This document shows positions 19,061-21,477 of a stretch of DNA of 64,000 nucleotides, one piece after another. The notes under the pieces are model-generated. The model had not been told where the DNA came from. It searched no databases and saw only the letters and a list, made by a program, of their open reading frames with translations. This DNA is from Callorhinchus milii (taxonomy: Eukaryota): positions 92,816,001-92,880,000 of the forward strand of contig NW_024704742.1 of NCBI RefSeq assembly GCF_018977255.1, written 5' to 3'. The translations under genes were made by a program, and so were the position numbers. How positions within the stretch are numbered: the stretch's first letter is position 1; every line of letters begins with the position of its first letter.

Positions 19061-21120
19061 ACTTTTGCATGGCTCACATGATGCCTAACCTCACCTACTA
19101 GTGTAATTTTTGTGATTAAGAGATTTTCATGCTTTGATGTCAGAACATCTGAGTCCATTACCAACCTGCCTTTAAGTGAGACCAGGCTATTTTGAAAGGC
19201 ATTATAAATGGGGTCCTTAGGTGAATTAATTATGGTTATCATTGCTCCAGATACTGACTGTTTCACAATAGGCTGGGCCACACTCACTGAAAGGTTTATC
19301 TGTGGAAGCAATGAATGCTTCAAACATTTATAAATGCTAATCAGAACTGAGCGACATATTATTATCATATACTATAAATCTCAGCATCATTCCATACTGA
19401 TGATCCTGTCCCCAAAATGCACAGCAGGTTGAACAGCACGCAAAAGAGAAAGGCAGGTTAACCTTTGGTGAATGACAATTTGTCAGAACTGGAGGGACTG
19501 GCTGAAGATAATATTAACAACAACAAATTGTATTTATATAGTGCCTTTCATGTTGTGATATAGTACAATATCAAATGCAAATATTATAATAATAGTATTT
19601 GATGTTGTAATATATCATGTCATAGAATTATCTTGAAGTGCTTCACAGGTTTACTATAAAGTCTGTATTTACTTCACAGGGTTGAATACATATTTAGAGG
19701 CAAAATATCTGCCTAAAGATGCCCCTTGGAAGGATTGCAGAAGGAAGGTTGCACCAGAAAACAACAACATTGACTAGAAGTTAAACATTTTAAATTTAAA
19801 ACCAATAATTAGATGCTGCTGTTCGGTCATTAACTAATCGTGACAAGCTTGAAAAAGGTTGAATTTGCAAAAGCAATCTCAGGCCAGAGTCCCTCTCTGC
19901 AGGTGTGAGAAAGCCATTTGCAGCATCTACATTTCAGAGCAAAAGACCAAGACTCACTTTTGAAATTAATGTTGCTAAATTGTACAATCAGATGACAGAT
20001 TTTATACAAAAAAAAACAAATGGTAGGCTAGATTATTTAATAACATTCCATGTTTAAGGGGTTTTCAATATGGTGGACAAAGAGCTGGATGCTGGATCTT
20101 ATGTTATTCTGCAGCTAGGTTAGATTTAAAAACAATTCCAGAGTAAATGGCATCAAGAATAAGCTGTTACAGTTACAGTGAATTACTGAATGTGTATGAA
20201 AGCAGCAAGACTTGACTGGCCAGAATAAAAGATGGTCTTTTTAATTTTTATGAATGAAGCCTTGCCTTTTGGTTCATTTCAAGAAAATAGATATTGAATT
20301 AGTGATGGCGAGGAAAGGACCATTTTTCTGCGCTGCGTTTGGATCTGTATGCTGCTGCCCACATTATTGTGCTGCGAGTCACGCATCAGTGAATGAGTGA
20401 AATTGCAGGCAGCTCTTTGTTCAATGGTTGGATGAAAATGAATGCCCCTAACACCTACGTGTAACCAATCTGTGCTGTTTCCCGTGCACTTGTTCATCCC
20501 TTGCATCTTTAATTATTTATCTTTGGAGAGTTTTTTTTTAAAAAAAACCAGGAAATTGTGGCAATTTGGATTAACCCTAGAAGGACTGCATATCCTATGC
20601 GGTTTGCGACCACACACATACAGCCAATTTTGCATTCGTGCTCTGGCACCATTTAATGAAACATTATTAAAGTGCAGCAAGGATACAAAGAACTTTCTGA
20701 TCCATCGTGCTGTTCGTATAAATTGGGAATCCAATTTTTGATATGCTTTTAGCCGCATTGCAATCATTTTGCCATTGACAGTGTAGGTTTAATCTGGGAG
20801 TAAATATTAAAGGGAAAAACAGGAGGATGAGAGTGAGGTGATGTACTGTGTCTCATTTAAGCGTCTGATCCAGCATTGCAAGAGATGGTTTTAATCAGAT
20901 ATTGGGAAATTGTCGTGATGGCTATAATGATGCACCATTTATCACACTGTCGGTCGTCTACATTTTACTTCTATTAACACCTCCTAAATAACAGCAATTA
21001 TATTTTGTTATTACCTTGATAGCAATGCATTTCTTTAACCTAATAAAATATGTCCTTCTTAAATAAGTATCTTGTTGTAAAATCACCCACAAAATATATA
21101 GTCAATTCACTTTACAGTAT

Positions 21121-21349
21121 AAACACAGAAGTCGCTGGGAACACGCAGCAGTTCGGGCAGCATCTATGAAGAGAGGAAAATGAGTCAATGTTTCAGGTCA
21201 ATGACCTTTTGACCTTGCTGACGAAAGGTCATTGACCTGAAACGTTAACTCGTTGTACTCTCTCCATAGATGCTGCCTGACCTGCTGCATGTTCCCAGCG
21301 ACTTCTGTGTTTGTACCAGATTTCCAGCATCTGCAGTACTTTCCTTTTG
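21121..21349 (+). mobile_element. Non-coding fold-back element of Penelope-like pLTR type with hammerhead motif, inserted into a SINE
   Basis: About 89-bp imperfect inverted arms (21121-21209 and 21224-21312), tail cagatttccagcatctgcagta, flanking duplication ttcacttta(c/t)agta at 21106-21119 and 21350-21363. Confidence 0.85.
21218..21250 (+). ncRNA. Minimal type I hammerhead ribozyme motif (Penelope-type); helix I 5' strand damaged
   Basis: CTGACGA-A-AGGTC(ATT)GACCT-GAAA-CGTT-AACT: both catalytic boxes, helix II, and a palindromic AACGTT helix III. Confidence 0.7.
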
Positions 21350-21477
21350 TTCACTTTATAGTACATTCTGTGAAGTGCTTTGAGACATCTTGAAGACGTG
21401 AAATGGCATGATATCAAATGCAAGGATTATTATTGTTAACTGAACCGTGCTTTTTTTCTTACCTGTAAGTGACCTTT

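What the first reader, a model, noticed from the sequence alone, without database searches (positions are those of the whole stretch)
21106..21363. 229-bp non-coding fold-back retroelement carrying a hammerhead ribozyme motif
Seen in sequence: two ~89-bp imperfect inverted arms (21121-21209 and 21224-21312) plus a ~37-bp unique tail. At the centre is CTGACGA-A-AGGTCATTGACCT-GAAACGTT (21218-21246), i.e. the hammerhead CUGANGA and GAAA boxes around helix II, with a palindromic AACGTT helix III. The opposite arm carries the mirror copy lacking its CUGANGA box. The unit is bracketed by a 14-bp duplication with one mismatch. Established: Penelope-like retroelements carry minimal type I hammerheads with a palindromic helix III (proposed to act as dimers) in their pLTRs and often leave inverted 5' junctions. 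Inference: this is either an extreme truncated Penelope insertion or a non-autonomous, protein-free ribozyme retroposon (retrozyme-like) family. Helix I is damaged in this copy, so it may be inactive.
Basis: partly seen in the sequence, partly recalled or inferred. Interest (0 to 1): 0.8.

Follow-up and report, generated by a model that had tools for sequence, protein, structure and literature searches.

The report
Fold-back Penelope stub with disabled hammerhead
This 230-base hairpin-shaped insert is two head-to-head copies of one short, very abundant repeat that carries a small self-cutting RNA (hammerhead) motif; it is most likely an ordinary leftover of a Penelope-type jumping gene, likely made when both ends of a DNA cut copied the element's RNA, and its motif is predicted to be unable to cut.

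Summary
In detail: 93-bp inverted arms with 10 mismatches, a minimal type I hammerhead core (21218-21246), a one-sided 33-37-bp tail and a 14-bp duplication of a site that other copies of the host SINE hold once. Two more copies lie in the window, and thousands of related contigs occur in public runs of three organisms. The family's 3' ends cluster at two sites about 37 bases apart, the known Penelope 'tail'. Its 5' boundary lies a few bases before the CUGA box. The fold-back junction differs between copies, so the hairpin is not a fixed mobile unit, and it is neither a MITE nor a tandem retrozyme. In this copy a 7-base duplicated filler replaces helix I, and the long hairpin is predicted to bury helix II. 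The layout matches the inverted-pLTR-plus-tail insertions described for Penelope-like elements. No autonomous partner could be sought, as no genome was held. Two-ended priming joined by end-joining is my preferred mechanism (inferred). The scan has already noted this kind many times, in this genome and in other genomes. Verdict: new member of a known kind, low interest.

The parts
21106..21119 (+). Left copy of the 14-bp target-site duplication (sequence of the host SINE)
21120..21209 (-). Inverted arm: tail-less copy of the unit, running from the pre-tail end to helix II; lacks the CUGA box; complementarity extends 3 bases into the left duplication (21117-21119)
21210..21217 (.). Junction filler; 21210-21216 is an exact tandem repeat of 21202-21208 and sits where the 5' strand of helix I should be
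   Evidence: low depth of related contigs here
21218..21246 (+). Minimal type I hammerhead core: CUGACGA, extra A, helix II 21226-21238, GAAAC, GUU; predicted cut after 21246
   Evidence: motif definition from PMC4209133
21218..21316 (+). Direct arm: hammerhead-bearing unit (pLTR-like) up to the pre-tail site
21317..21349 (+). One-sided tail, 33 bp (37 bp if counted from 21313)
   Evidence: family end clusters
21350..21363 (+). Right copy of the target-site duplication, 13 of 14 identical
21080..21440 (+). Host SINE-like repeat (3' part, ending in an ATT-rich tail), interrupted by the insert; family name not tested
60331..60713 (+). Copy 2 of the family: fold-back with a different junction (60634/60635), inverted arm split by a SINE (about 60377-60576), hammerhead core on the minus strand (60607-60631), 14/14 duplication 60317-60330 / 60714-60727
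34730..34801 (+). Copy 3: single tail-less piece that starts within about 4 bases of the predicted cut site; probable 17-bp duplication with 2 mismatches (34717-34733 / 34799-34815), overlapping both ends

Best explanation
The insert is two head-to-head copies of one 100-135-base hammerhead-bearing repeat unit between 14-bp target duplications, most likely a non-coding stub of a Penelope-like retroelement, likely made when the element's protein cut both target strands and primed one cDNA from each cut end, with a ribozyme that is predicted not to fold in this copy. Shown: the arms, tail, duplication, filler, two family 3' end clusters, a family 5' boundary just before the CUGA box, and junctions that vary between copies. 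From the literature: a PLE protein cuts and extends both strands and starts reverse transcription at two internal RNA sites that define the tail (PMC11167929). Inferred: (1) a staggered cut of 14 bases in an A/T-rich SINE site; (2) one end primed at the tail-end start site and gave the direct arm, the other primed at the pre-tail site and gave the inverted arm; (3) both cDNAs ran towards the 5' end of an uncut RNA that likely starts a few bases before the hammerhead; (4) the two cDNA ends were joined by end-joining with a 7-base templated filler; (5) the copy has since decayed, with about 5 changes per arm. Odds: Penelope-type origin about 0.9; two-ended priming, given that origin, about 0.65.
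For: Both fold-back copies start their inverted arm within 1 base of the same family position, and tail-less copy 3 ends there too. Contigs of related copies leave the family sequence at 60711-60714 (X3, X7, X11) and at 60674/60678 (X7), with loose-end agreement 0.37-0.41; where family sequence continues, agreement is 0.57-0.78 (18 of 523 rows shown). On the 5' side, 202 contigs of X3 leave at 60633, two bases before the CUGA box, with agreement 0.37. Summed depth at 21217 is 55- to 310-fold below the 21222-21244 bin in the four runs, and copy 2 joins elsewhere, so junctions are made anew. Filler duplication. Published layout: adjacent inverted pLTR, 31-bp tail and 9-10-bp TSD (PMC3846280, passages); inverted 5'-truncated copy and 30-40-bp tail (PMC8557442, passages); min-HHR in pLTRs (PMC4209133, parts 1-2 of 4). 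Predicted probability of helix II is 0.000 in the full insert and about 0.06 from 21210 onward.
Against: No RT plus GIY-YIG partner was found or could be sought: no genome was held, and the 150 longest of 214 open frames in the window gave 3 RVT_1 hits and no GIY-YIG hit. The Penelope link therefore rests on architecture and motif, not on contiguity with an ORF. The two arms of copy 1 share minority letters at 21233, 21288 and 21309, which a snap-back from one cDNA explains equally well. The outer part of copy 2's inverted arm is only 77% identical to its direct arm, which is unexplained. Contig ends and depths come from short assembled pieces, and only the top rows were shown. Pair 10.1-11.1 is A-U where PMC4209133 reports a highly conserved G-C.
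Confidence: 0.6

Rival explanations
1. Same Penelope-type origin, but the mirror arm arose by self-priming: one strand folded back near the hammerhead hairpin and copied itself (on an antisense template, as proposed in PMC3846280).
For: The arms share three minority letters. The junction lies at the helix II hairpin, and the filler can pair with 21224-21232. PMC3846280 reads junction palindromes as self-priming (passage).
Against: It does not by itself explain why the inverted arms of copies 1 and 2 stop at the same pre-tail site where tail-less copies also end. In copy 2 the direct arm starts about 55 bases inside the unit while the inverted arm runs to the 5' boundary, with no palindrome at the join.
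Confidence: 0.24
2. The unit is a dedicated non-autonomous ribozyme retroposon (retrozyme-like) with its own short source copies, mobilised in trans by a PLE protein.
For: The unit is bounded at both ends and very abundant. A few contigs join the hammerhead 5' end to a tail or pre-tail end, that is head to tail (tables 5 and 5c). bioRxiv 10.64898/2026.07.22.740005 reports PLE-derived tandem retrozymes in the one chondrichthyan it sampled (part 1 of 5 and passages).
Against: This locus is head-to-head, not a tandem array. The motif is the minimal PLE type, not the canonical type of retrozymes (PMC7229834, passages). Copies that keep the core cannot come from a cleaved RNA. Internal priming near the 5' end of an ordinary PLE transcript would give the same bounded unit.
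Confidence: 0.12
3. A miniature inverted-repeat DNA transposon, or a chance or later rearrangement of two separate insertions.
For: Long inverted arms.
Against: A 33-37-bp tail lies outside the arms on one side. Duplications are 14, 14 and about 17 bp with different sequences. Junctions vary, single-arm copies exist, and one duplication brackets both arms.
Confidence: 0.04

Closest known systems
Insertions of endonuclease-bearing Penelope-like elements with inverted pLTR, one-sided tail and TSD (Adineta vaga Pen2a_Av, PMC3846280, passages; scheme in PMC8557442, passages)
   Same: Head-to-head inverted copy at the 5' side, a 30-40-bp tail on one side only, and one duplication around the whole insert.
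   Different: No ORF and no second direct pLTR; the insert is only 230 bp; the duplication is 14 bp rather than 8-10 bp; a 7-base duplicated filler sits at the join.
Minimal hammerheads of metazoan PLEs (PMC4209133, parts 1-2 of 4 read)
   Same: Core boxes, one extra base between 9 and 10.1, no real helix III, palindromic 15.2-16.2, mostly single dispersed motifs; that paper also notes pairs on opposite strands 100-700 bp apart.
   Different: A-U instead of G-C at 10.1-11.1; helix II of 5 bp; helix I lost in this copy. No shark or chimaera is named in the parts read.
Poseidon element of Anolis carolinensis, PAc (PMC11167929, parts 1-2 of 4 read)
   Same: Two internal end points about a tail length apart, roughly 90-130 bases downstream of helix II; A/T-rich flanks; copies made from uncut RNA.
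   Different: No start codon is seen at helix II here; the clade of the shark-type partner is unknown; PAc behaviour is in vitro and was not tested for this family.
Non-LTR retrozymes of animals (PMC7229834, passages; bioRxiv 10.64898/2026.07.22.740005, part 1 and passages)
   Same: Short, non-coding, type I hammerhead, related to PLE pLTRs.
   Different: They are head-to-tail arrays with canonical hammerheads and circular RNAs; this is a head-to-head insert with a minimal, disabled motif.

Membership tests
Autonomous EN+ Penelope-like element | Single ORF with telomerase-like RT and GIY-YIG endonuclease | tested here: not met
   Only 230 bp lie between the duplications and the direct arm has stops in 2 of 3 frames and no long ORF; no GIY-YIG hit in the 150 longest of 214 open frames of the window. 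Not filed as an autonomous element.
PLE-derived insertion (pLTR stub) | Terminal sequence shared with an ORF-bearing PLE | not testable with these tools
   No genome held; collection scans gave only chance 19-22-base matches.
PLE-derived insertion (pLTR stub) | 30-40-bp tail on one side; two preferred 3' ends | tested here: met
   33-37 bp in copy 1, about 37 in copy 2, absent in copy 3; end clusters 60674/60678 and 60711-60714.
PLE-derived insertion (pLTR stub) | Adjacent inverted 5'-truncated copy with variable junction | tested here: met
PLE-derived insertion (pLTR stub) | Target-site duplication of variable sequence; A/T-rich flanks | tested here: met
   14, 14 and about 17 bp; empty SINE sites; T-rich loose ends.
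Minimal type I hammerhead of PLEs | CUGANGA and GAAA boxes, extra base after 9, helix II, palindromic 15.2-16.2, NUH triplet | tested here: met
Minimal type I hammerhead of PLEs | Helix I of 4-5 bp in this copy | tested here: not met
   1 of 6 pairs; filler duplication.
Minimal type I hammerhead of PLEs | Helix I in the family | tested here: inconclusive
   Copy 2 keeps 2 pairs next to the core. Most depth at 21217 reads T, restoring the first pair. The first loose letters at 60633 would extend it to 4 pairs, but per-letter support is not given.
Minimal type I hammerhead of PLEs | G10.1-C11.1 pair | tested here: not met
   A-U in copies 1 and 2; conserved but not absolute in PMC4209133.
Minimal type I hammerhead of PLEs | Self-cleavage as dimer or with protein help | not testable with these tools
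   Needs a bench assay.
Non-LTR retrozyme | Head-to-tail tandem units, each with a hammerhead | tested here: not met
   None of the 3 copies in the window is tandem; a few head-to-tail joints exist elsewhere in the family.
Non-LTR retrozyme | Abundant small circular RNA | not testable with these tools
   Only assembled contigs were offered, no raw reads.
MITE | Inverted repeats at both termini and a short fixed TSD | tested here: not met
   One-sided tail; 14-17-bp duplications of differing sequence. MITE definition recalled.

The most novel reading that the evidence does not exclude
These stubs are a fossil record of the Penelope reaction in vivo: each fold-back is two cDNAs primed from the two ends of a staggered double-strand cut at the element's two internal start sites, run off at an RNA start a few bases before the hammerhead, and joined by templated end-joining. 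The same data hint that the endonuclease repeatedly hits one short site of a SINE. A census of the copies would then settle how PLE inverted ends form and where the RNA begins.
Probability: 0.4. Interest if true: 0.5.

Novelty: new member of a known kind. Interest (0 to 1): 0.2.

Why it matters
The copy itself is decayed repeat DNA of a described kind. Its value is as one data point in a very large family whose ends and junctions can be counted. How Penelope-like elements form inverted ends and tails is called undefined in PMC8557442 (passage), and in vivo cleavage by their hammerheads is unshown (PMC11167929 found no reads ending at the cut site). A census of junction fillers, arm variants and 5' ends in one well-assembled genome could test both questions without bench work.

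Tried and rejected
Rfam search at E<=10 over 20000-22500: no hammerhead family; 3 chance-level hits. Whole genome: not held. Pattern scans for relatives with flanks: metagenome 0 and 11 stretches, viral 0, prokaryote genomes 5; all 16 loci are 49-69% GC and match only 19-22 bases of the direct arm, so I discarded them as chance. Expression: no RNA holder listed. Run X11 is only guessed to be RNA; it holds family contigs, but its cover ends at copy 2's flank; this is no evidence either way. A step in depth at the predicted cut site: none seen, but the laid piece is 57 bases and edge effects dominate, so copy 3's start at the cut site stays a single ambiguous case. The idea that TTCACT after the tail belongs to the element was rejected: depth falls from 58,014 to 548 across 60716/60717 in X3 and the loose ends are heterogeneous. 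Pfam scan of the 150 longest of 214 open frames: 3 RVT_1 hits, which I read as CR1/L2-type LINE pieces from recalled motifs, and no GIY-YIG. Paper searches for a description of this shark or chimaera family (listings only, plus passages of PMC6155905) found none. The library lacks most subscription journals, I had no access to Repbase or Dfam, and I read no supplementary files, so this is not evidence that the family is undescribed. Lunse et al. on dimer cleavage was seen only as cited in PMC6765202 (passages). Look-ups of earlier findings by sequence and by nearby place gave nothing relevant.

Full report
Setting. The window is about 40% GC with LINE fragments and many SINE-like repeats. An exon at 23694-24281 encodes the start of an SHC-family adaptor (best match SHC1 PTB domain, E 2.7e-14; I recall its N-terminus as SHC3-like), about 2.35 kb downstream of the insert. 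I take the source to be a cartilaginous fish from recalled repeat motifs; an earlier unchecked note on the same genome names the elephant shark (e1-9812748), which I did not verify. No whole genome was held.

The observation. The arms are 21117-21209 and 21224-21316, 93 bases with 10 mismatches, and fold far better than 200 shuffles (z -20.8). The hammerhead core at 21218-21246 has both boxes, an extra A, a 5-bp helix II and a palindromic C-G in place of helix III. A descriptor written after the fact finds it once in the window and never in 200 simulated windows; it misses copy 2, whose helix II has one mismatch. Rfam does not recognise the motif. The 14-bp duplication is real. It is a sequence of the host SINE, which 12 of 13 other window copies cross without an insert, and 744-1,081 contigs per run leave the stretch at 21121 and continue as uninterrupted SINE (table 7).

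The 8 bases before the CUGA box are not a mutated helix I: 21210-21216 repeats 21202-21208 exactly, which looks like a templated filler made at joining (inference). The window holds two more copies. Copy 2 (60331-60713) is also a fold-back with a perfect 14-bp duplication, but its inverted arm runs to the hammerhead's 5' side and its direct arm starts about 55 bases inside the unit; a SINE splits the inverted arm at contiguous family positions. Copy 3 (34730-34801) is a single tail-less piece with a probable 17-bp duplication. A profile from these pieces found only one further weak hit in the window (19417-19479, E 0.024).

The family. On the 184-base stretch of copy 2, 9,832, 11,889 and 2,463 contigs were laid from runs X3, X7 and X11; runs of organisms A, B and C all hold it. 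The tool warns that depth is no copy number, so I claim only thousands of distinct related contigs. Of 523 loose-end rows, 18 were shown. They place 3' departures at 60711-60714 in all three runs and at 60674/60678 in X7, and a 5' departure at 60633 in X3 (202 contigs), each followed by heterogeneous sequence (agreement 0.37-0.41). The control rows, where family sequence continues, have agreement 0.57-0.78. The unit is therefore about 100 bases without the tail and about 135 with it, from just before CUGA to the tail. The inverted arms of copies 1 and 2 start within one base of each other at the pre-tail site, and copy 3 ends there. The fold-back point is not fixed: summed depth at 21217 is 61, 177, 504 and 462 against 19,067, 33,356, 34,433 and 25,441 in the neighbouring core bin. 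Other contigs cross both arms with gaps of 2-15 bases (table 8, 24 rows shown of 24,860).

Mechanism. PMC11167929 (parts 1-2 of 4) shows that the Anolis PAc protein cuts and extends both target strands, prefers A/T-rich DNA, starts reverse transcription at two internal RNA sites whose spacing is the tail, and uses uncut RNA. A 14-bp duplication with a tailed copy on one side and a tail-less inverted copy on the other is what priming from both cut ends would leave. If the RNA starts a few bases before the hammerhead, both cDNAs would be short, which explains the bounded unit without a separate element. I drew this reading; it is not recorded in my notebook before the look-ups, where several unchecked notes state the same idea, and their agreement is not independent support. 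Against it: the arms of copy 1 share minority letters at 21233, 21288 and 21309, two of which copy 3 also carries, so they mark a subfamily and fit one RNA, two sister RNAs or a snap-back alike. PMC3846280 favours self-priming on an antisense template. My data lean to two-ended priming only through the shared pre-tail start and the asymmetry of copy 2.

Activity. In the full insert the long hairpin leaves helix II a predicted probability of 0.000, and from 21210 onward about 0.06, because the filler competes for it. Helix I has 1 of 6 pairs. The mirror arm lacks CUGA and has lost the palindromic G. About half of the 10 arm differences fall on each arm relative to the run majority, as expected for neutral decay. 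The family motif may be intact, but helix I is only partly reconstructed and the 10.1-11.1 pair is A-U.

Target site. After reading e1-8039185 I rechecked: among the 32 pieces shown of 206,337, three different contigs of X7 and one of X5 cross from the tail into the SINE at this position with about 13% other letters. One per run could be the orthologous locus; three in one run suggest more loci or alleles. The duplications of copies 1 and 2 also both begin with TCACT or TTCACT. This is a hint of a preferred site, not a test, and I do not know whether that note concerns the same site.

Comparison and verdict. The layout is that of Penelope-like insertions with inverted pLTR, tail and TSD (PMC3846280, PMC8557442), and the motif is the minimal PLE hammerhead (PMC4209133). 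It fails the tests for an autonomous PLE (no ORF), a tandem retrozyme and a MITE. It works like a PLE-made stub; descent from a particular autonomous element is inferred, not shown. The scan's notes hold 215 findings with all the search words in at least 23 genomes and 143 fitting notes in this genome, 8 of each shown. New member of a known kind; interest 0.2.

Noticed in passing
window 60317-60727: Second fold-back copy with a perfect 14-bp duplication; a SINE splits its inverted arm. The outer piece (60331-60376) is only 77% identical to the direct arm while the inner piece is close to the run majority, which is unexplained. A contig of organism C spans its tail and flank, so the insertion is probably shared between species.
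   Followed up: partly
window 34717-34815: Tail-less single copy whose 5' end falls within about 4 bases of the predicted hammerhead cut site, blurred by overlap with its duplication; it would fit copying of a cleaved RNA but is a single case.
   Followed up: partly
window 21349-21363 (table 8): Three different contigs in run X7 and one in X5 join the element's tail to the same position of the SINE; possible insertion hotspot.
   Followed up: partly
window 60633 joined to 60674/60675/60714 (tables 5 and 5c): A few contigs join a hammerhead 5' end directly to a tail or pre-tail end, that is head-to-tail dimers of the short unit, which could allow dimeric ribozyme folding.
   Followed up: no
window 23694-24281: First coding exon of an SHC-family adaptor gene, about 2.35 kb downstream of the insert; no evidence that the insert affects it.
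   Followed up: partly
window 60666-60682 and 21302-21319: The pre-tail site lies in a pyrimidine run ending in CAG that resembles a splice acceptor (recalled consensus); PLEs are known to carry introns near the pLTR. Not tested.
   Followed up: no
window 406-1255, 30762-32391: Broken LINE reverse-transcriptase fragments (RVT_1 hits), CR1-like and L2-like by recalled motifs.
   Followed up: no
window 49337-49466 and 63333-63462: Two SINE copies 98% identical over 130 bases, suggesting a young subfamily.
   Followed up: no
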